A stretch of 64,000 bases of DNA from Mobula hypostoma (Eukaryota): the NCBI RefSeq assembly GCF_963921235.1, contig NC_086097.1, positions 122,576,001 to 122,640,000 on the forward strand, in the 5' to 3' direction. Every line of letters begins with the position of its first letter. The first letter of the stretch is position 1. This document shows positions 17,430 to 50,755 of this stretch, piece after piece. The position numbers and the translations under genes are program-made. A model generated the notes under the pieces. The model saw only the letters and a program-made list of their open reading frames with translations, was not told the origin of the DNA and did not search any database.

Positions 17430-20400
17430 AGGCCCTTCGACCCACATTGTTGTGCTGACCATGTAATCTACTCTAGAAATTGCTGAGAATTTCTTTATCT
17501 TTATTATAAAGGTGGAACAAAGATAACGTCGGCCTGCGGTATCATCGAGAAAAGACGTGTAGATCCAAAGATTCCCTGATGTTGACATTTCATAATGAAG
17601 GCAAATTAGGTGGCTGCCTTTGATAGCCATGGTACAGAATATAAGAGCAGGGAGATTATGGCACAGTTTGATTGACATTAGGTAGGCTATAGCTGGAGTT
17701 CTGGATGCAGTTTTGGTTGCTACATTATTGGAAGGATGTGATTGCACTAGAGAGGATGGTATCTCCTGGGATGGACTGTTTTAGTTATGAGATGATACCA
17801 GAAAAGCTGAATTGTTTGCTTTGGAGCAGAGGATGATGTGTGAGAGTCTGACTGAAATACACAAAACAATGAGGGATATAAGATGAATAGTTAGAAACTT
17901 GTCCCCATAGCAGAGGGAATAGTTTTAAAGGGATAAAAGGTGTAGAGGGGAATTTAGACTCAGTCAAAGTAAATTTGTTATCAAAGTACGCACGTCATAT
18001 ATTACCTGAGGTTCATTTTCTTGCCGGTATCTCCAGGAAAATAAAGATATACTTTCTGTTTTGATTTAGAAGATCTGTGATATTTTGGCTTTATGTTATG
18101 AAATAAAAAACTGTCTTGAGATGTATGTTAGAGCTATCAAGATACCTCTGGGCTTTGGAATATATTTTCTTTAAAAGTGGGGTAATATTAATGAATGATA
18201 TCTAGTAGCTTAGCAAGCCTTTCCCATTGTTAGTATCGCAGTATCTAAATTATCTAATGTAGATTACATTATAAATATTGCACTTATGTCATTAAATGTT
18301 TAAAGAACTACCTTCTTTCTCTCCCTCTTGCTGCTGCTCCTGAATCTCAGAGTTGTATACTGCATAAATGCTTTGATAATAAATGTACTTTGAATCCTTT
18401 GAATCCCAATGCTACAATCTTACGACATGGCAAAAAATCTGTATGAAGACCTTGTTGGTTTCTGATAGATCTTTTCTTGGAGGAGTGTAACAAACTCCCA
18501 TAAACTCACCAAATAAATAAAACCAATTTCCATTTATCCCACACCTTTACTGTAGGAGTACCTCTGTAGGTACTTCATAGTGTAATCAGAGAAGGAATGT
18601 AACATCACAGCAAAGAAGAGGTGAGGAGGTCTGCCAAAAGGAGTGCTTTTTGTTGGGCAGGTCTTGAAGGAGGGAAGATGCAGTGAGGCAAAAAGATTCA
18701 GTGAAGGGATTGGTGAACTGAATGGACCGGAACACCTCATAAATCATTGCATCACCGGGGCTGGAGAACAAGGCAATGGAAGTTGTGTTAAAGAAGCATC
18801 AGCGACTAGCGACTAGCTAGGTTATATTGAGCATATTGTATTTATTTCCAGACACTGTACATCAGGAAGAAACATTGGCTGTGGGATGTTGCCACGGAGA
18901 TTTACAAAAAAAGAAAATTCTGGGATGATAATCTGCAGTAATGGAATGAAACCAGATACATGAAGATAAGACATATATTTCCTAATCAAAGATGTGATGA
19001 ATCAGCATATAGAAGGGAGATTGAAGACCTGGCTGAATGGTGCCACAACAACCACCTCTCACTCAATGTCAGCAAAACCAAAGAGCTGATTAATGACCAC
19101 AGGAAGAAGAAACTGGAAGTCCATCAGGGGATCAGAGGTGGTGAAGGTCAATAACTTTAAATTCCTGGGCATTATCATAATCAGAGGATCTGTCCTGGGA
19201 CCAGAATGTAAACATTATTTCAAAGAAAGTATGGCAGCGCCTCTAATTTCTTCCAAGTTGGTGCAGATTTGGCATGTCATCTAAAACTCTGACAAATTTC
19301 TATAGATTCACAGTGGTGCCCAGGAACAGAAAAGCCAACAAAAAGTGAATTATATAGCTCAGTACATCACAGAAAAATCTCTCCCCACCTTTGATCTCAT
19401 CTACACAGAGCACTGCTGCAAGGAAGCAGTATCCATTATCAAGCACCCCACTATCCAAGCCATGTTCCCTCCTCACTTCTACCATCAGGAATGAGGTATG
19501 GGAACCTCAGGTCCCACACTACCAGGTACTGGAACAGTTAATACCCTTCAACCATCAGGCTCCTGAACCAGCATGGACACCTTCACTCACCACACATTGA
19601 ACCATAAGACTATAAGATATAAGAGCAGAATTGGGCCACTTAGCCCAGCGAGTCAGCTCTGCCAATTCATCATGGCTGATCCATCTTCCTCTCAGCCCCA
19701 ATCTCTTGCCTTCTCCTGTGTATCCCTTCAGCCCATGACTAATCAAGAATTTATCAACGTCTGTCTTATATATACCCAATAACTTGGCTTCCATAGCTGC
19801 TTGTGGCAATGAACCCTACAGATTCACCACTCTCCAGCGAAAGGAATTCTTCCTCATCTCCTTTCTAAATTGATGTACCTCTATTCTGAGGCTGAGTCCT
19901 CTGGTCTTGGACTTAAGGACTCAACAACTCATTTTCTCAATTTTATATATTTACTTATTTTTTATGGTTATTAATTCCTGTTTATTTTTGTATTTGCACA
20001 ATTCATCAGTTTTTGTTTGTGTGTTTTTTTCCACTTATTCTACTGTTCTTTTTTCTACTGTAAATGCCTGAAAAAATGAATGTCAGGGTAGGTTTTGGTG
20101 ATATATTTACTTACTTTGATAATAAAATTTAGTTTGTACTTTGTGCTTTGTATTATTCCACAGAAGATACTGGTGCAATTCTACCCTGGCATCATAGAGA
20201 GAGTCCTCGCATCAGCCATTACTGTCCGGTTTGGTGCAGCATCTTCTCACCATGCACAAAAACGACAGTGAACTGTCAGTTCAACAGAAACTGTCTGCAG
20301 TCTATCACCACCGCCGGACTTGTATGTGTCCAGGACCTAAATTAGGCAGAAAAAATCATTGTGGACACCACCAACCCTGCAAACTACCCTTTCCAAAAGC

Positions 20401-20674
20401 CTCTTCTGGGACACACTATAGATGCTATTAAAACAAAAACTTCATGCCATCTTAACAGTTTATTCCCCCACCCCGCCCCAACCACTCTAGTTAACATCCC
20501 TTCCATGCCCTCAATCTCTGCACTGCTCTGTAAACATTTTAAACTACATTTTATAATGCCGCTTACATTGTAAATACATGCTGGTATTAATGTATTTATG
20601 CACATTTTATTCTATATCTGTACTTTAACCTCTAAGTTTATTTTATGTAATTCATTATTCTTTATAATTGTTGA

Positions 20675-21245
20675 GGGGTGTATGGGGTGTCAGGGAGGGG
20701 TAGCACCTCTGGTGGGGGAACATGTCGCGTCCTTTTCAGGGCGGTTAGTCCACCTTTGGTCCCCACCTGGCACTCAGCTCTCACCTGTGGCTCCCCGTAG
20801 CTGTTTGCATGCGACAGCGGCCACACCCTGGGCAACGGCTTCGACAAGCCGGCTAAACCAGGTGAGGGTAGCCGACGGGTCTCAAACCCTCGGTGAGATA
20901 GGGAGTTGTCTATCCCAGCATGTGAAGACAGACTCCGGCGGATTGAGCAGACGAGACCAGTGGAAGGTCCAACGGTCAAGAAGGCGGTCTCTGCAAGCGT
21001 CATGGAATATGTAGAGCAGGACAAGACACAGAAGACGTCCTGGTCATCCACTGCGCCTAGTCCCATCTCCAGCCGTCTAGACTCTGTCTTGCCACTGGAT
21101 CCAGATGGGAATTGGGAAGAGAGAGTGAGGCTGACGCTGCGCAACTCTCCCTCACTTAAATCCAAATCACGCGCTAGCCTCAACACCATCATTATGGTGT
21201 CGAGGTCCTCATCGACGTCAACGATGGACGAACAACAACAACAAC
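20675..21245 (+). mobile_element. Non-coding RTE-type retroposon with a 5' HDV-like ribozyme, copy 1
   Basis: 11-bp TSD ataattgttga (20664-20674 and 21246-21256), (aac)n tail, second copy at 50200-50755. Confidence 0.9.
20684..20868 (+). ncRNA. Predicted HDV-like self-cleaving ribozyme
   Basis: P1 ggggtgt/acaccct with G1-U wobble; P2 ctcacctg/caggtgag; P3 ggc/gcc; L3 tcc able to pair with gg (P1.1); P4 cggctt/aagccg; J4/2 g-C-taa. Confidence 0.8.
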
Positions 21246-22842
21246 ATAATTGTTGAAAGTTGCTGTTTTTGTTGCATGTCACACCCTGACCAACACACCA
21301 CAGCAAGTTCCTAATGCATGTAAATGTACTGTATATGGCAAATAAAGTTGGTCTTTGATCCTTGAAAGGTGATTAGAAAAGTTAAAAATAATGCAAATTG
21401 GATATTGCAACTCCATAAGTTAATGGAAAAGTAACATTGAATACTTGGGTTATGGAACTAAAGCAGATCAATGAAAACAGGACGCATATCAACCATTAGC
21501 TAACTGAATGAGGGATTAGATTCTAACTGATAAATGGGCTACTCAAACTGAGCATAAAATGAACTACAGGATGAACTCAATGCATCAAGCAGCATCTGAG
21601 GAGGGTAAAGAATGGCTAATGCTTTCAGTTGAGACCCTGAATCAGAACTGGGAGTATAGAGAGGTAGCATGTTAGTGTAACACTACTACAGCACTGGCCC
21701 CATCTTCTCTGTGACCTTGTGTGTTTCCTCTGGGTGCTCTGGTTTCCTCCCACATTCCAAACGTGTACGGGTCAGTAGCTTAATTGGTCGCATTGTTGTA
21801 ATTGAGCAGTGCGGACTCATTGGGCCAGAATTGCTTGTTACCGTGCTGGATCTCTAAAAAAACCAGATTGTCAGAATATAAAGTGAAAGGGAGGGGCGAG
21901 ACAGAAGCTGGAATTTGATAGATAAAAACAAGAAAAGGAGAACAAATCATTAGGCAGGTGGAGACTGGTGTGTGGGGGAAAGGGTTAAGATTAGGAACAG
22001 GGGCTTCTAGGAGTGGGTGGAACCAGAAACTGGTAGAATGATGGACTAAATCGAGGAGGCAATAGCAAAGGTGAACCAAGGAGATAGGGATGTGTGTAAT
22101 GGGCAGATGGAGACATTTGGGGGAGGGTGATGAGTCTAAATTACAAGGGAAAAACAAATGGGGAATGTGAATAGAGGAAGAGAAAATCTGGCCTGGACTT
22201 GGATCATTGCACGCAAAAGAATTTTTAAAATTATTGCCACATTGTGCACACGCTCTTAAAAATGTTTGTCACTCCTGGTTGAGTCTATGCATGGTTTCAC
22301 CAGTGTAGAGGAGGCCATACCATGAGCAGCAGATGCAGTGGACCAGGCTGAAAGGGGTTTATGTGAACCTCTACCTCACCTGGCCACACTTGCAGTGTGG
22401 CTTTTTGCAGCAGACTCGCTGTGTCCCATCTCCTACAAGCCTCACTATAAAACAGAAAGTCACAGGAGCACCACAAGATCAATTGTCCAGTCGTCCCCAG
22501 TACCTGTGGACGTTGTATAAAATCATATTAAAGTAGTAAAACATATAATATTAACCAAACCTGATTATGAACCTGTACAGACAATACACTGAGCCATTGA
22601 GGAAAAGTAATAATCTCAAAAGGCAAATATTTCCCATTCTTCTAAATTAGGAAGTCTGTTCACTCACAAAAACCTATGCCTTCTTTAGCAGTGGATTTAC
22701 CTATACGTGGCTGTCTCCAAAGAGAGTGTAATTTGGGAGGAAATACATGCAGGAATAGTAGTTCAAATTTTACAGCTAAATGTGTCTGTGCTGCTTCTTT
22801 GAATGAGCTTCCTTCAATTGTTATTAGTGCCCAAAAGTGTTC

Positions 22843-44280: not shown

Positions 44281-45759
44281 TAGAGAGCAATTCCCTAATG
44301 GGGCGGGTGGTAGATAGTTTGTGAGATGTGATTAGATTAGTTTATTGAAAATATACAATAGGAAAAATAAAAGTCTTGCTTGCATGAAGCTCACAGAGTA
44401 AAGAGTGTATGGGCAAAATGCAATACTAATCATTCAACAGCAGAATGATGCAAACATTGTAGTTCAATCTGAAGTTGTGCAAAAATAAATATCATAAAAG
44501 AATGTCACTGAAATCCTTGACAAATAGGTGCCCAGTGGAACTGGTTACATCATGGCCTAGAATGGAAATATCAATGCTCAGGAATGGAAAATTTGATAGA
44601 AAGTGGTAGATACACTCCAATCCATCACAGACAAAACTCCTCACCACTGAGCACATCTACAAGGAGCACTGCCATAAGAAAGCAGCATCCATCATCAAGG
44701 ACCCCCATCATCCACTCCAAGCTCTCTTCTTGCTGTTACCATCGGAAAGGAGGTACAAGAGCCTTACATCCAATGTAACCAAGTTCAGGAGCAGTTATTA
44801 CCTTTCAACCATCAGGCTTCTGAATCAGCCTAGACAGCTTTACTCACTTCAACTTTGAACTGACCCCACAACCTACAGACTCATTTTCAAGGACTTGACA
44901 CCTCTTGTTCTCGGCATTATTCTCTTTTTTTCAAATTTGCACTACTTATCTTCTTTTACACATAGATTGTTTGTCAGTCTTTGTTTACTGTTTTTCATAA
45001 ATTCTATTGTCTTTCTTTATTCTCCTGAAAATACACTTCTTGCAAGAAAATGATTCACAAGGTAGCATAAGGTGACATATACATACTTTGCTAATAAATT
45101 TGACTTTGACTTTGTCTTAAAGTGCAAATGATGGAAAACCAAGAGAGGTAATGTTATAATTATGAGTATGTGGCAGGACCAATGGAAAGGGGTGTGAAAG
45201 ATGGGATTGGTCCACAACTAATGTATTGGCATATCATACATATAAAACTAAACTTTGGGAATGCTAAATTATCTATCATTGTGTAATGAAAATTCTCACT
45301 TGGTAGATAATGAAACTTGTATGAAATCATACATGTTCCTGAAATGAAGTCAATATATTCATTATAGACCACCAAATCCCAAATATTTCACATTAATACA
45401 AATGCAGGTATGATTTTAAAGCAAACTTGAGCATATAGTTCATGCTGGTGTTTATGTCTTTATCGACATTCAATTCTATATCTGTACTTTAACCTCTAGT
45501 TTATTTCTATATAATTCTGTATAATTGTTGAATGTTGTTGTTTTTTGGTGCATGTCGCACCCTGACTGACACACTGCAGCAAATTCCTAATACTTGTAAA
45601 TGTATTGATGAATAAAGTTGGTCTTTGATTTTGACCTACTGTAAATTGCACTCTTATTTCTAAATGCTTAGACATTTCACTAGGGAGTTTGTATATCAGT
45701 TGTTGCAGGATAAGACTGCAAAATCAAAAAAAAAACATCGTAAACTCATCTTCAGTCGG

Positions 45760-49545: not shown

Positions 49546-50199
49546 CCTCACTCCGACAAAGAAGGTCTCAGTTTCACGGGGATGGGAACCAGACTGCCAG
49601 AACAGATAGTGGAGAGGCTGTGGAAAGAAATGCTGTTAAGACCTCAGACAAAATCAGGAAACAAAAAGATTGAGCAAGGTGTAACTAATGTTCTGAGTTG
49701 CGTATATTTCAATGGAAGAAGTATTGTAAGAAAGACAGATGAGCTCAGGGCATGGATCAGCAGATAGAATTATGATATTGTAGCCATTTGTGAGACTTGG
49801 TTGCAGGAAGGACAGGACTGACAGCTCAATATTCTGGGGTTTTGCTGTTTTAGATGTGACAGACCAGGAGGGATTAAAGGGGAAGGGGTGGCATTACTAG
49901 TCAAGGAAAACATCATGGCAGTGCTCAGTCAGGATAGACTGGAGAACTTGTCTAGTGAGGCGTTATGGGTGGAACTGAAAAATAAGAAAAGTATGAACAT
50001 GTTAATGGGACTATATTATGGACCACGCAAAAATCTGCAGGATTTAAAGGAACAAATTTGACGAGAGATCGCAGATTGCTGCAAGAAACATAATGTTGTG
50101 TTAGTAGGTGACAGTAACTTTTGACAATGACTGGGACTCCCAAATGACTAGATGGGATAGAGTTTGTCAAATGTATTCAGGAAATTTTCCTTAATCAGT

Positions 50200-50755
50200 T
50201 GGTTGTTCGTCCATCGTTGACGTCGATGAGGACCTCAACACCATTAAGATGGTGTCAAGACTAACACGTGATTTGGATTTAGGTGAGGGAGAGATGCGCA
50301 GCGTCAGCCTCACTCTCTCTTCCCAATTCCCATCTGGATCCAGTGGCAAGACAGAGTCTAGACGGCTGGAGATGGGACTAGGCGCAATGGATGACCAGGA
50401 CGTCTTCTGTGTCTTGTCCTGCTCTACACGTTCCATGACGCTTGCAGAGACCGCCTTCTTGACCGTTGGACCTTCCATAGGTCTCGTCCGCTCAATCCGC
50501 CTGAGTCTGTCTTCACATGCTGGGATAGACAACACCCTATCTCACCGAGGGTTTGAGACCCGTCGGCTACCCTCACCTGGTTTAGCCGGCTTGTCGAAGC
50601 CGTTGCCCAGGGTGTGGCCGCTGTCGTATGCAAACAGCTACGGGGAGCCACAGGTGAGAGCTGAGTGCCAGGTGGGGACCAAAGGTGGACTAACCGCCCT
50701 GAAAAGGACGCGACATGTTCCCCCACCAGAGGTGCTACCCCTCCCTGACACCCCA
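50200..50755 (-). mobile_element. Non-coding RTE-type retroposon with a 5' HDV-like ribozyme, copy 2
   Basis: 8-bp TSD taatcagt (50192-50199 and 50756-50763); short aacaacca tail; cleanly splits the CR1 endonuclease coding sequence. Confidence 0.9.
50570..50754 (-). ncRNA. Predicted HDV-like ribozyme, copy 2
   Basis: All core pairings identical to copy 1; G1 at 50754, 1 nt inside the element end. Confidence 0.8.

What the first reader, a model, noticed from the sequence alone, without database searches (positions are those of the whole stretch)
20675..21245. Ribozyme-headed non-coding retroposon: HDV-like ribozyme at the 5' end of a young SINE-like element
Seen: a ~560 bp GC-rich element with an 11-bp TSD and (aac)n tail and no recognisable tRNA head. 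It folds into the HDV topology: P1 20684-20690 ggggtgt pairs with 20823-20829 acaccct (G1-U wobble); P2 20780-20787 pairs with 20859-20866; P3 ggc 20789-20791 pairs with gcc 20820-20822; L3 starts tcc and can pair with gg 20830-20831 (P1.1); gcaa leads into P4 cggctt-cgac-aagccg; J4/2 gCtaa holds the candidate catalytic C20853. Copy 2 starts 1 nt before G1, and copy 1 starts with a duplicate of the P1 strand, as expected if self-cleavage defines the 5' end. An empty-site paralog of the host repeat at ~45520 carries only one ataattgttga. Established: HDV-like ribozymes process the 5' ends of R2, RTE and some other non-LTR elements. Inference: a promoterless non-autonomous element that is released from host read-through transcripts by self-cleavage and mobilised in trans by an RTE-clade LINE.
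Basis: partly seen in the sequence, partly recalled or inferred. Interest (0 to 1): 0.9.

Follow-up and report, generated by a model that had tools for sequence, protein, structure and literature searches.

The report
Ribozyme-headed deletion copy of a LINE
A very abundant 571-base jumping element in a large animal genome is a gutted copy of an RTE-like LINE that keeps the LINE's front-end hepatitis-delta-type self-cutting RNA fold, which is a known arrangement seen here in an unusually clear and numerous form.

Summary
The element is real: window 20675-21245, 11-bp target-site duplication, (AAC)n tail. The family has at least 2,327 copies.

The HDV-type fold is present as drawn. A generic descriptor found it 0 times in 5.12 Mb of shuffled sequence. 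Related LINEs from other organisms keep the fold with compensatory changes in P1, P2 and P4.

- The element is not an independent SINE. It is nt 1-~519 of the 5'UTR plus the last ~52 nt of a ~4.1-kb single-ORF (endonuclease + reverse transcriptase) LINE of the same genome. One copy of that LINE has an open 1,109-codon frame.
- The 5' ends pile up at 20675, not 20684: 49 of 90 sampled copies start at nt 1-3 and 2 of 90 at nt 10. The terminal GGGGTGT is therefore P1.
- The G1-U wobble is private to this copy. The family has G1-C.

Rfam finds nothing. The likely reasons are the 96-nt J1/2 domain and a hairpin inserted in L3.

Cleavage itself is untested. HDV-like ribozymes on RTE elements and internally deleted ribozyme-bearing derivatives (R2 SIDEs, NARTc) are already published.

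The parts
20664..20674 (+). left target-site duplication ataattgttga
   Evidence: the same 11 nt recur at 21246-21256, and a paralogous empty site holds one copy
20675..21245 (+). 571-bp non-autonomous retroposon, an internally deleted LINE
   Evidence: 2,327 exact matches of an internal 34-mer in the genome; copies have different flanks and TSDs
20675..20681 (+). P1 5' strand GGGGTGT; G20675 is the predicted cleavage-site nucleotide G1
   Evidence: 5' ends of 49 of 90 sampled copies fall at nt 1-3. In L125 this strand covaries with P1' while the internal repeat does not. It is unpaired in the MFE fold
   Evidence: nt 11-20 pair with nt 92-101 in the MFE fold; only 2 of 90 copies start here; degenerate in L125 and in the intact LINE copy
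20682..20777 (+). J1/2 peripheral domain; closing helix 20685-20694 with 20766-20775 (P1.2-like)
   Evidence: the same closed domain is predicted in L144 with a different helix sequence
20778..20787 (+). P2 5' strand, pairs with 20859-20868
   Evidence: L144 has a compensatory CCAG/CTGG in place of CCTG/CAGG
20789..20791 (+). P3 5' strand GGC, pairs with GCC 20820-20822
   Evidence: relatives carry ACC/GGT, GCC/GGC and GCG/CGC
20792..20819 (+). L3, 28 nt: TCCCCGTA, then inserted hairpin 20800-20818, then G. CC 20793-20794 pairs with GG 20830-20831 (P1.1)
   Evidence: the hairpin insertion is shared by L125 and L144, whereas other relatives have a 7-8-nt L3 starting TCC
20823..20829 (+). P1 3' strand ACACCCT (family state ACACCCC)
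20832..20851 (+). J1.1/4 GCAA and P4 hairpin CGGCTT-CGAC-AAGCCG
   Evidence: P4 is replaced by CTACG/CGTAG in L144
20852..20858 (+). J4/2 GCTAAAC with candidate catalytic C20853
   Evidence: GCTAAAC is identical in L125 and L144, and C-N-R-A is present in the other cores (by construction of the descriptor)
20859..20868 (+). P2 3' strand
20869..21192 (+). rest of the LINE 5'UTR retained in the element
   Evidence: LINE copies L091, L110 and L122 are collinear with element nt 1 to about 516-521
21193..21229 (+). 3' module homologous to the LINE's ~50-nt 3'UTR just after its stop codon
21230..21245 (+). g(aac)5 tail, of variable length between copies
21246..21256 (+). right target-site duplication
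50198..50755 (-). second copy, 5' end at element nt 8/9, TSD tgatt(a)
45521..45531 (+). single ataattgttga in a paralogue of the host repeat (empty site)

Best explanation
The 571-bp element is a short internally deleted derivative of a ~4.1-kb RTE-like LINE of this genome. It consists of the first ~519 nt of the LINE's 5'UTR joined to the LINE's last ~52 nt.

Its first ~194 nt, inherited from the LINE, fold as an HDV-like self-cleaving ribozyme:
- P1: 20675-81 with 20823-29
- P2: 20778-87 with 20859-68
- P3: GGC/GCC
- P1.1: CC/GG
- P4: hairpin
- J4/2: candidate catalytic C20853

Two peripheral additions are present: a 96-nt J1/2 domain closed by a helix, and a hairpin inserted at the 3' side of L3.

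Inferred mechanism: when a copy is transcribed as part of a longer RNA, the ribozyme cuts immediately 5' of G20675 and so defines the element's exact 5' end. The 3' module with its (AAC)n tail is recognised by the LINE's reverse transcriptase, which copies the RNA into new sites by target-primed reverse transcription.

Shown: the anatomy, the LINE parentage, the 5'-end pile-up, and conservation with covariation of the fold.

Inferred: that cleavage occurs, that cleavage rather than transcription initiation sets the 5' end, and mobilisation in trans.
For: Parentage:
- Copies L091 and L110 continue past element nt 516-521 into more UTR and an endonuclease ORF.
- L122 is a full ~4.1-kb copy with Exo_endo_phos (6e-8) and RVT_1 (1e-17) domains. 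Its stop codon is followed by ~50 nt homologous to the element's tail.
- One LINE copy has a 1,109-codon frame without stops. Its 5' end starts GGGGTGTATGGGG with an intact core.

5' ends:
- 90 copies were sampled by an internal 34-mer. BLAST starts were nt 1 in 35, nt 2 in 8, nt 3 in 6, nt 4-9 in 7, nt 10 in 2 and nt 14-418 in 32.
- Flanks differ between copies.

Fold is not chance:
- 0 full descriptor hits in 5.12 Mb of shuffles and 0 of 5,000 shuffles of the first 200 nt.
- Only the two copies hit in the window.

Conservation and covariation in related LINEs (80 metagenome loci):
- L125 has P1 GTGGTGT/ACACCAC, so pair 2 changes from G-C to U-A.
- L144 has P1 AGGGTGT/ACACCCT (pair 1 is A-U), P2 CCAG/CTGG in place of CCTG/CAGG, and P4 CTACG/CGTAG in place of CGGCTT/AAGCCG.
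- Homology to the window element begins within 2 nt of the P1 strand in both.
- Cores with a 7-8-nt L3 and different P2/P3/P1' sequences were found upstream of the ORF. The TCC descriptor hit 8 of 80 loci on the plus strand and 0 on the minus strand.
- The ribozyme region is 84% identical between the window and L125, against 67% for the whole LINE.

Folding:
- MFE folds leave the terminal P1 strand and P1' free. They form the J1/2 closing helix, P2, the L3 hairpin and P4 in the window and in L144, with different helix sequences.

Against Pol III:
- A TTTT run at 20733-36 argues against Pol III transcription (the Pol III termination rule is recalled, not from a call).

Literature (passages read):
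- HDV-like ribozymes cleave at the 5' junction of RTE, R4 and L1-type elements, and J1/2 loops reach hundreds of nt (PMC3774820).
- RTE and baggins elements carry such ribozymes (PMC6765202).
- A J1/2 helix (P1.2) activates large HDV-like ribozymes (PMC4908430).
Against: - No cleavage or RNA-end data exist. The runs found are contigs only.
- Rfam's HDV-family models give no hit on the window or on 20 related loci.
- The family's first P1 pair is G-C, not the G-U wobble of HDV and CPEB3.
- L3 is 28 nt rather than 7-8 nt, which I did not find described (listing only).
- A young subfamily has GGGGTAT. This gives an A-C mismatch at P1 pair 6 with no compensating change, yet these copies still start at nt 1. 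It makes up 15 of the 30 most similar copies and 5 of 58 in the unbiased sample.
- A transcription start at nt 1 would give the same pile-up of 5' ends.
- One related LINE (L124) has a homologous but degenerate core.
- Most of the 80 related loci gave no descriptor hit. Many are cut at the 5' end or may have diverged.
Confidence: 0.7

Rival explanations
1. The 5' end at 20675 is set by transcription initiation from an internal Pol II promoter in the LINE 5'UTR. The conserved HDV-like fold serves another role, such as translation initiation or protein binding, or only trims occasional read-through transcripts, as in the L1Tc dual promoter-plus-ribozyme arrangement.
For: - A pile-up of 5' ends does not distinguish a transcription start from a cleavage site.
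- The GGGGTAT subfamily keeps its nt-1 start despite a P1 mismatch.
- L1Tc combines an internal promoter and an HDV-like ribozyme in the same 77 nt (PMC3383444, abstract).
- HDV-like ribozymes have been proposed to aid translation of uncapped RNAs (PMC6765202, passages).
Against: - The first nucleotide of the element coincides with the first nucleotide of P1 in the window family, and to within 2 nt in L125 and L144.
- P1 covaries in those lineages. That is expected if pairing of the very 5' end matters.
- The reviewed RTE and baggins elements are described as lacking their own promoters (PMC6765202, passage).
Confidence: 0.2
2. The fold is an inactive relic. The family's G1-C pair, the 28-nt L3 and the P1 mismatch subfamily mean the RNA no longer cleaves, and the copies spread for other reasons.
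For: G1-C instead of G-U; long L3; no Rfam hit; A-C mismatch subfamily; degenerate core in L124.
Against: - The core is better conserved than the rest of the LINE: 84% against 67% with L125.
- Compensatory changes occur in P1, P2 and P4.
- The L3 hairpin itself is kept in three lineages with a U-G change.
- The first 8 nt of L3 (TCC..GTA), J1.1/4 (GCAA) and J4/2 (GCTAAAC) are kept.
Confidence: 0.08
3. It is a classical Pol III SINE with an unrecognised head.
For: Short, abundant and non-coding, with a LINE-type tail.
Against: - No tRNA, 5S, 7SL or snRNA match even at E<=10.
- A TTTT run lies at nt 59-62.
- The first ~519 nt are collinear with the 5'UTR of the LINE.
Confidence: 0.02

Closest known systems
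HDV-like ribozymes at the 5' termini of RTE-type non-LTR retrotransposons (drz-Agam-2 family and others; Ruminski et al. 2011, not held here, known to me only through passages in PMC6765202, PMC3774820 and PMC4908430)
   Same: The ribozyme's G1 is the first nucleotide of an endonuclease-plus-RT single-ORF LINE that inserts at many sites. The long J1/2 is closed by a helix (P1.2). The presumed role is 5' processing of co-transcripts.
   Different: L3 is 28 nt with an inserted hairpin, against a 7-8-nt L3 in relatives L143, L155 and L175. The first P1 pair is G-C. The host is a large animal genome that earlier notes of this scan take to be a ray's. No activity data exist.
R2 SIDEs, short internally deleted elements (PMC3414825, abstract in a search listing; PMC6765202, passage)
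   Same: A non-autonomous element made by internal deletion of the LINE. It keeps the 5' ribozyme and the 3' end needed for target-primed reverse transcription.
   Different: R2 and its SIDEs insert only in 28S rDNA and are cut out of rRNA co-transcripts. This family is dispersed with 5-12-bp TSDs and has thousands of copies.
L1Tc / NARTc of Trypanosoma cruzi with L1TcRz (PMC3383444 and PMC3185411, abstracts)
   Same: A dispersed LINE and its truncated non-autonomous partner share a 5'-terminal HDV-like ribozyme.
   Different: Different LINE clade (ingi/L1Tc) and a 77-nt compact ribozyme that doubles as a promoter. No promoter function has been tested here.
[quoted passage not shown]
   Same: Two tandem P1-like strands lie upstream of one P1'. 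Use of the inner one would delete the outer one in progeny. Here 2 of 90 copies, plus window copy 2, start at or next to the inner strand.
   Different: Here the inner strand is old: it is present in L125 and L144. It is predicted to be part of the J1/2 closing helix and is not a recent target duplication.

Membership tests
HDV-like self-cleaving ribozyme | Nested double pseudoknot: P1 (about 7 bp, starting at the cleavage site), P2, P3 (3 bp), P1.1 and P4 in the canonical order | tested here: met
   (all helices present). 0 chance hits in 5.12 Mb of shuffles.
HDV-like self-cleaving ribozyme | Catalytic C in J4/2 (C-N-R-A) and an L3 that begins U-C-C with a downstream G | tested here: met
   C20853 lies in GCTAAAC. 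L3 starts TCCCCGTA. GCTAAAC and TCC..GTA are kept in L125 and L144. The catalytic role itself cannot be tested here.
HDV-like self-cleaving ribozyme | Short L3 (7-8 nt) | tested here: not met
   L3 is 28 nt with a hairpin at 20800-18. Relatives L143, L146, L155, L159, L172 and L175 have 7-8 nt. That a short L3 is typical is partly recalled.
HDV-like self-cleaving ribozyme | G1-U wobble at the cleavage site (HDV, CPEB3) | tested here: not met
   The family state is G1-C (26 of 31; 42 of 58). Only this copy and a minority have T. Whether the wobble is required across the family is recalled as not strict.
HDV-like self-cleaving ribozyme | Score above threshold with Rfam HDV-family covariance models | tested here: not met
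   No hit at gathering score or at E<=10. No hit either on 20 related loci, including the canonical-L3 core of L155.
HDV-like self-cleaving ribozyme | Helices supported by compensatory changes in homologues | tested here: met
   P1 pairs 1 and 2, P2 pair 9 and three P4 pairs change on both sides in L125 and L144. Only three lineages could be aligned by homology.
HDV-like self-cleaving ribozyme | Site-specific self-cleavage giving a 5'-OH product | not testable with these tools
   No raw RNA reads were available.
RTE-clade LINE (the partner) | Single ORF with AP endonuclease and RT, a 5'UTR, an extremely short 3'UTR ending in simple repeats, and TSDs of about 6-12 bp (PMC2887409, passages) | tested here: met
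   a ~1,060-1,109-aa ORF, a ~50-nt 3'UTR and an (AAC)n-type tail. TSDs are 5-12 bp.
RTE-clade LINE (the partner) | RT domain groups with RTE references in a phylogeny | not tested
   No reference RT sequences could be brought in. The nearest solved structures are L1 ORF2p (3e-31) ahead of R2 (3e-16). That only shows an APE-type LINE.
Internally deleted non-autonomous LINE derivative (SIDE-like) | Both the 5' end and the 3' end are collinear with the autonomous element, and the ORF is missing | tested here: met
Pol III SINE | Head derived from tRNA, 5S or 7SL RNA, with an internal Pol III promoter | tested here: not met
   No Rfam match; T4 run at nt 59-62; the head is the LINE 5'UTR.

The most novel reading that the evidence does not exclude
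The hairpin inserted at the 3' side of L3, together with the helix-closed 96-nt J1/2 domain, may define an undescribed structural subclass of HDV-like ribozymes that current covariance models miss. This subclass would be carried by an RTE-like LINE lineage whose proteins are 65-79% identical across rays, sharks, teleosts, a frog, turtles, a tapeworm and a snail. If so, ribozyme-headed deletion derivatives could be a sizeable, overlooked share of what is annotated as 'SINEs' or unclassified repeats in vertebrate genomes.
Probability: 0.3. Interest if true: 0.6.

Novelty: new member of a known kind. Interest (0 to 1): 0.45.

Why it matters
The locus is a clean natural example of how a LINE's 5' ribozyme lets a gutted copy keep an exact 5' end and spread. 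At least ~2,300 copies share the sampled 34-mer, most of them the deletion form. About 470 first-look candidates carry the LINE-specific part.

Two practical points follow. Standard Rfam scans miss such ribozymes when the peripheral parts are large. Repeat annotators may file these elements as SINEs.

The L3 hairpin and the tandem P1-like strands make specific, cheap predictions for ribozyme biochemistry.

The principle itself is published: HDV-like ribozymes on RTE, R2, R4 and L1Tc elements, plus SIDEs and NARTc.

Tried and rejected
- Rfam. Whole window at gathering score, 20600-21300 at E<=10 and 20 related loci at gathering score. No HDV-family hit in any of them.
Not available.
- Genome letters. 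The intact ORF itself was not read.
- Relaxed descriptor. It was too loose: hits in 51 of 80 loci and many on the minus strand. I used it only to spot the L129 and L178 cores by eye.
- MAFFT alignments. The alignment of the canonical cores misaligned P4 and P2'. MAFFT also shifted L144's P1 strand by two columns. For these reasons I ran no RNAalifold, no count of structure pairs and no covariance model. The pair table comes from my own script.
- RNA evidence. No RNA holder was listed. The four runs laid were contigs, with no table of molecule starts or ends, so nothing can be said about expression or RNA ends.
- Possible coding frame. A 116-codon open frame runs from element nt 223 to 570. It was considered as a possible ORF1. 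BLASTP found no match for it in L125 or L144, and it lacks a consistent start codon, so I treat the element as non-coding. This evidence is weak.
- Pol III SINE reading. Rejected.
- Ruminski et al. 2011 (PMC3308841). Not held. Its figures and supplements may already show long-L3 or RTE ribozymes like this one.
- Literature on a hairpin in L3. One search (listing only) showed nothing. That does not establish absence from print.
- Earlier scan notes. The by-sequence look-up found nothing. The by-words and by-genome look-ups gave only loosely related notes.

Full report
**What is at the locus**

Window 20675-21245 is a 571-bp GC-rich insert. It is flanked by the 11-bp duplication ataattgttga (20664-74 and 21246-56) and ends in g(aac)5.

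A paralogue of the surrounding host repeat at about 45460-45620 carries a single ataattgttga at 45521-31. This confirms an insertion.

A second copy lies on the minus strand at about 50755-50198 and starts at element nt 8/9.

**The family**

The genome holding the window is 3.48 Gb.
- The 40 scored matches to the element were 97-98% identical and nearly all full length, out of 3,753 first-look candidates.
- An internal CpG-free 34-mer (21101-34) has 2,327 exact matches. The reversed control has 0.

I took the first 30 listed matches as loci and fetched 60 of the next 70. I left out the L002 copy and the two window copies, which I already had, and the last 7 listed. The listing is by coordinate on one contig, so the sample is blind to 5' ends.

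Among these 90 copies, BLAST alignments to the window copy begin as follows:

| Start (element nt) | Copies |
|---|---|
| 1 | 35 |
| 2 | 8 |
| 3 | 6 |
| 4-9 | 7 |
| 10 | 2 |
| 14-418, scattered | 32 |

L064 and L065 have identical flanks and are one insertion duplicated 30 kb apart, so the independent count is 89.

Flanks and TSDs (5-12 bp) differ between copies. The RNA 5' end of the family is therefore nt 1 (20675). Only L058 and L082, both with clean TSDs, start at 20684's equivalent, and window copy 2 starts one or two nt before it.

**It is a gutted LINE, not a separate SINE**

- Two of the 90 sampled copies (L091, L110) run past element nt 516-521 into about 350 nt more UTR. They then enter an ORF beginning ...TIGTWNVRTLLDN...ERRTALVARELARYNIDIAALSETR.
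- A full but decayed copy (L122) is about 4.1 kb. It has a 5'UTR of roughly 0.8 kb and an endonuclease domain (Pfam Exo_endo_phos, 6e-8). It has a reverse transcriptase (RVT_1, 1e-17) and a C-terminal C2H2-like motif. Its TAA stop is followed by only ~50 nt, which are homologous to the element's last ~50 nt.
- The element therefore equals LINE nt 1-~519 plus the last ~52 nt, joined at about 21193.
- The LINE-specific part has 467 first-look candidates. The 40 scored were 85-91% identical to L091, apart from L091's own 100% self-match.
- A protein search of the genome found one copy of this LINE with a 1,109-codon frame without stops (C58:18198471-18201632). It overlaps a hit.
- The 5' end of that copy (L203) starts ...GCTT|GGGGTGTATGGGGCATCAGG and has an intact core with ACACCCC as P1'.
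- The architecture matches the published description of the RTE clade (PMC2887409, passages): a single APE-plus-RT ORF, a very short 3'UTR ending in a simple repeat, and TSDs of this size. I could not run an RT phylogeny, so 'RTE' rests on architecture.
- The nearest solved structures are L1 ORF2p (3e-31) ahead of R2 proteins (3e-16).

**Is the HDV-like fold more than chance?**

I wrote a generic HDV descriptor with these requirements:
- P1 of 7 bp
- P2 of at least 6 bp
- P3 of 3 bp
- CC in L3 pairing with GG after P1
- a P4 hairpin
- C-N-R-A in J4/2
- J1/2 up to 120 nt and L3 up to 35 nt

Results:
- On both strands of the window it hits only the two copies of this element.
- It gave 0 full hits in 5.12 Mb of dinucleotide shuffles of the window, and 13 hits when the P1 5' strand was not required.
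- It gave 0 of 5,000 shuffles of the element's first 200 nt with a full hit, and 8 with a core-only hit.

The descriptor was written after seeing the example, which inflates these figures somewhat.

**Independent support from relatives**

The RT part of L122 finds 1,678 proteins at E<=1e-3 among 4,564 candidates. The top hits are 65-79% identical. Where named, they come from turtles, a frog, a manta ray, a shark, teleosts, a tapeworm and a snail.

An alignment of 14 of these proteins retrieved 80 metagenome loci that encode relatives, many with 0.7-1.5 kb upstream of the ORF.

Three loci are alignable with the window's ribozyme by plain BLAST:

| Locus | Identity | Length (nt) |
|---|---|---|
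| L125 | 84% | 205 |
| L144 | 69.5% | 200 |
| L193 (decayed) | 74% | 171 |

In L125 and L144 the homology starts within 2 nt of the P1 strand, and unrelated AT-rich sequence lies upstream.

The helices compare as follows:

| Helix | Window family | L125 | L144 |
|---|---|---|---|
| P1 | GGGGTGT/ACACCC(C) | GTGGTGT/ACACCAC (pair 2: G-C to U-A) | AGGGTGT/ACACCCT (pair 1: A-U) |
| P2 | ..CCTG/CAGG.. | as in the window family | ..CCAG/CTGG.., plus one C-G to U-G change |
| P4 | CGGCTT/AAGCCG | not tabulated here | CTACG/CGTAG |

The unpaired core strings are kept in all three: TCC..GTA in L3, GCAA in J1.1/4 and GCTAAAC in J4/2.

In L125 the inner P1-like repeat is GGGTATT, which cannot pair with ACACCAC. 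In that lineage only the terminal strand can form P1. The same holds for the intact LINE copy, whose inner repeat is GGGGCAT.

Whole-element identity between L122 and L125 is 67% over 4,079 nt, against 84% for the ribozyme. With L144 the only alignable stretch of the first ~440 nt of the 5'UTR is the ribozyme core (72% over 101 nt).

More distant relatives have cores with an ordinary 7-8-nt L3, for example L175: ACC tccacgt GGT ccccctg GG caac ... CTAA. A descriptor requiring L3 to start TCC hit 8 of 80 loci on the plus strand and 0 of 80 on the minus strand. The stricter full descriptor hit 3 of 80 and 0 of 80. P2, P3 and P1' differ in sequence among these cores.

Not every relative has the fold. 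Most loci gave no hit, and L124 has a homologous but degenerate core.

**Architecture**

MFE folding without pseudoknots gives the following:
- nt 1-10 are unpaired.
- nt 11-20 pair with nt 92-101, closing a 90-nt J1/2 domain.
- P2, a hairpin inside L3 (20800-18) and P4 all form.
- P1' is left essentially free.

L144 folds the same way, with a closing helix of different sequence: GGGUGGUUGUG/CAUAACCACUC against GGGUGUCAGG/CCUGGCACUC.

[quoted passage not shown] J1/2 loops of hundreds of nt are documented for R2 ribozymes (PMC3774820, passages).

Occasional use of it as P1 would give progeny starting at nt 10, as in 2 of 90 copies. This is the behaviour modelled for R2 elements with two P1 strands (PMC3774820, section read).

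The unusual feature is L3. Its first 8 nt look like a normal L3, and a 19-nt hairpin is inserted before the last nucleotide. The insertion is shared by the window family, L125 and L144.

**Points against**

- Rfam gives no HDV-family hit.
- The family's first P1 pair is G-C. The window's G-U is a private CpG decay.
- A young subfamily has GGGGTAT. This gives an A-C mismatch at P1 pair 6 without compensation, yet these copies still start at nt 1. It makes up 15 of the 30 most similar copies and 5 of 58 in the blind sample.
- No RNA-level evidence could be obtained.
- A transcription start at nt 1 would give the same genomic pattern of 5' ends.

**Verdict**

It needs three corrections:
- G1 is 20675.
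- The wobble is not a family trait.
- The element is an internal-deletion derivative of the LINE.

Compared with print, this is a new member of a known kind. HDV-like ribozymes at the 5' ends of RTE, R2, R4, baggins and L1Tc elements are established, as are internally deleted ribozyme-bearing derivatives (R2 SIDEs, NARTc) (PMC6765202 and PMC3774820 passages; PMC3414825 and PMC3383444 abstracts).

The L3 hairpin, the copy number and the animal host are the fresh aspects. I could not read Ruminski et al. 2011, which may already cover similar forms.

Noticed in passing
L049, L055, L085, L093, L099, L102, L114, L116, L117 (loci of G000): 9 of the 90 sampled copies are chimeras. Element nt 1 to ~517 (502 in L099) is followed directly by a tRNA-like SINE (GCCAGCTGGTGGCGCAGTG...GGTTCCCGAGTTCGAATCC...). 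The 3' end of that SINE (AATGGTGTCGAGGTCTTCATCGATGA.GATGGACGAAC) is homologous to the LINE tail. The genome thus also holds a true tRNA-derived SINE of the same LINE and a composite subfamily.
   Followed up: partly
L064 and L065 (G000:C1 42.75 Mb and 42.78 Mb): Two sampled copies have identical flanks and an identical 5' truncation at nt 113. This is one insertion copied by a ~30-kb segmental duplication.
   Followed up: no
window 20897-21244 (element nt 223-570): A 116-codon frame without stops runs to the end of the element. It is also present in L002 and partly in LINE copies. BLASTP found no match for it in L125 or L144.
   Followed up: partly
L122 (reverse complement, nt ~760-900), L125, L144: The main ORF's frame is conserved at the protein level for ~45 codons upstream of the IGTWNV start region (..EEG.RKG.L.I..FI.PWP..RGWRGS..). 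L122 is 58% identical to L125 and 47% to L144 there. Translation may therefore begin further upstream than the database proteins suggest.
   Followed up: no
proteins P0001-P0120: The LINE's RT has relatives at 65-79% identity in turtles, a frog, a manta ray, a shark, cyprinid and medaka fishes, a tapeworm and a periwinkle. This patchy, high-identity spread would fit horizontal transfer. It was not analysed.
   Followed up: no
L155:1-90: Upstream of a canonical HDV-like core, this related LINE contig has three tandem ~20-nt units rich in GTGTGTG. Each could serve as the P1 strand for P1' CACACAT, so several alternative cleavage sites are possible.
   Followed up: no
window 20400-20674 and 21246-21400; 45400-45640: The element sits inside an older dispersed repeat. 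Contigs of other coded organisms bridge the equivalent empty site (table 5).
   Followed up: partly
G000: The first look for this LINE protein gave 228,461 candidates. Most scored hits, at 66-68% identity to P0001, belong to one or more other related families, several with open frames above 1,100 codons. RTE-like LINEs appear to be a very large part of this genome.
   Followed up: no
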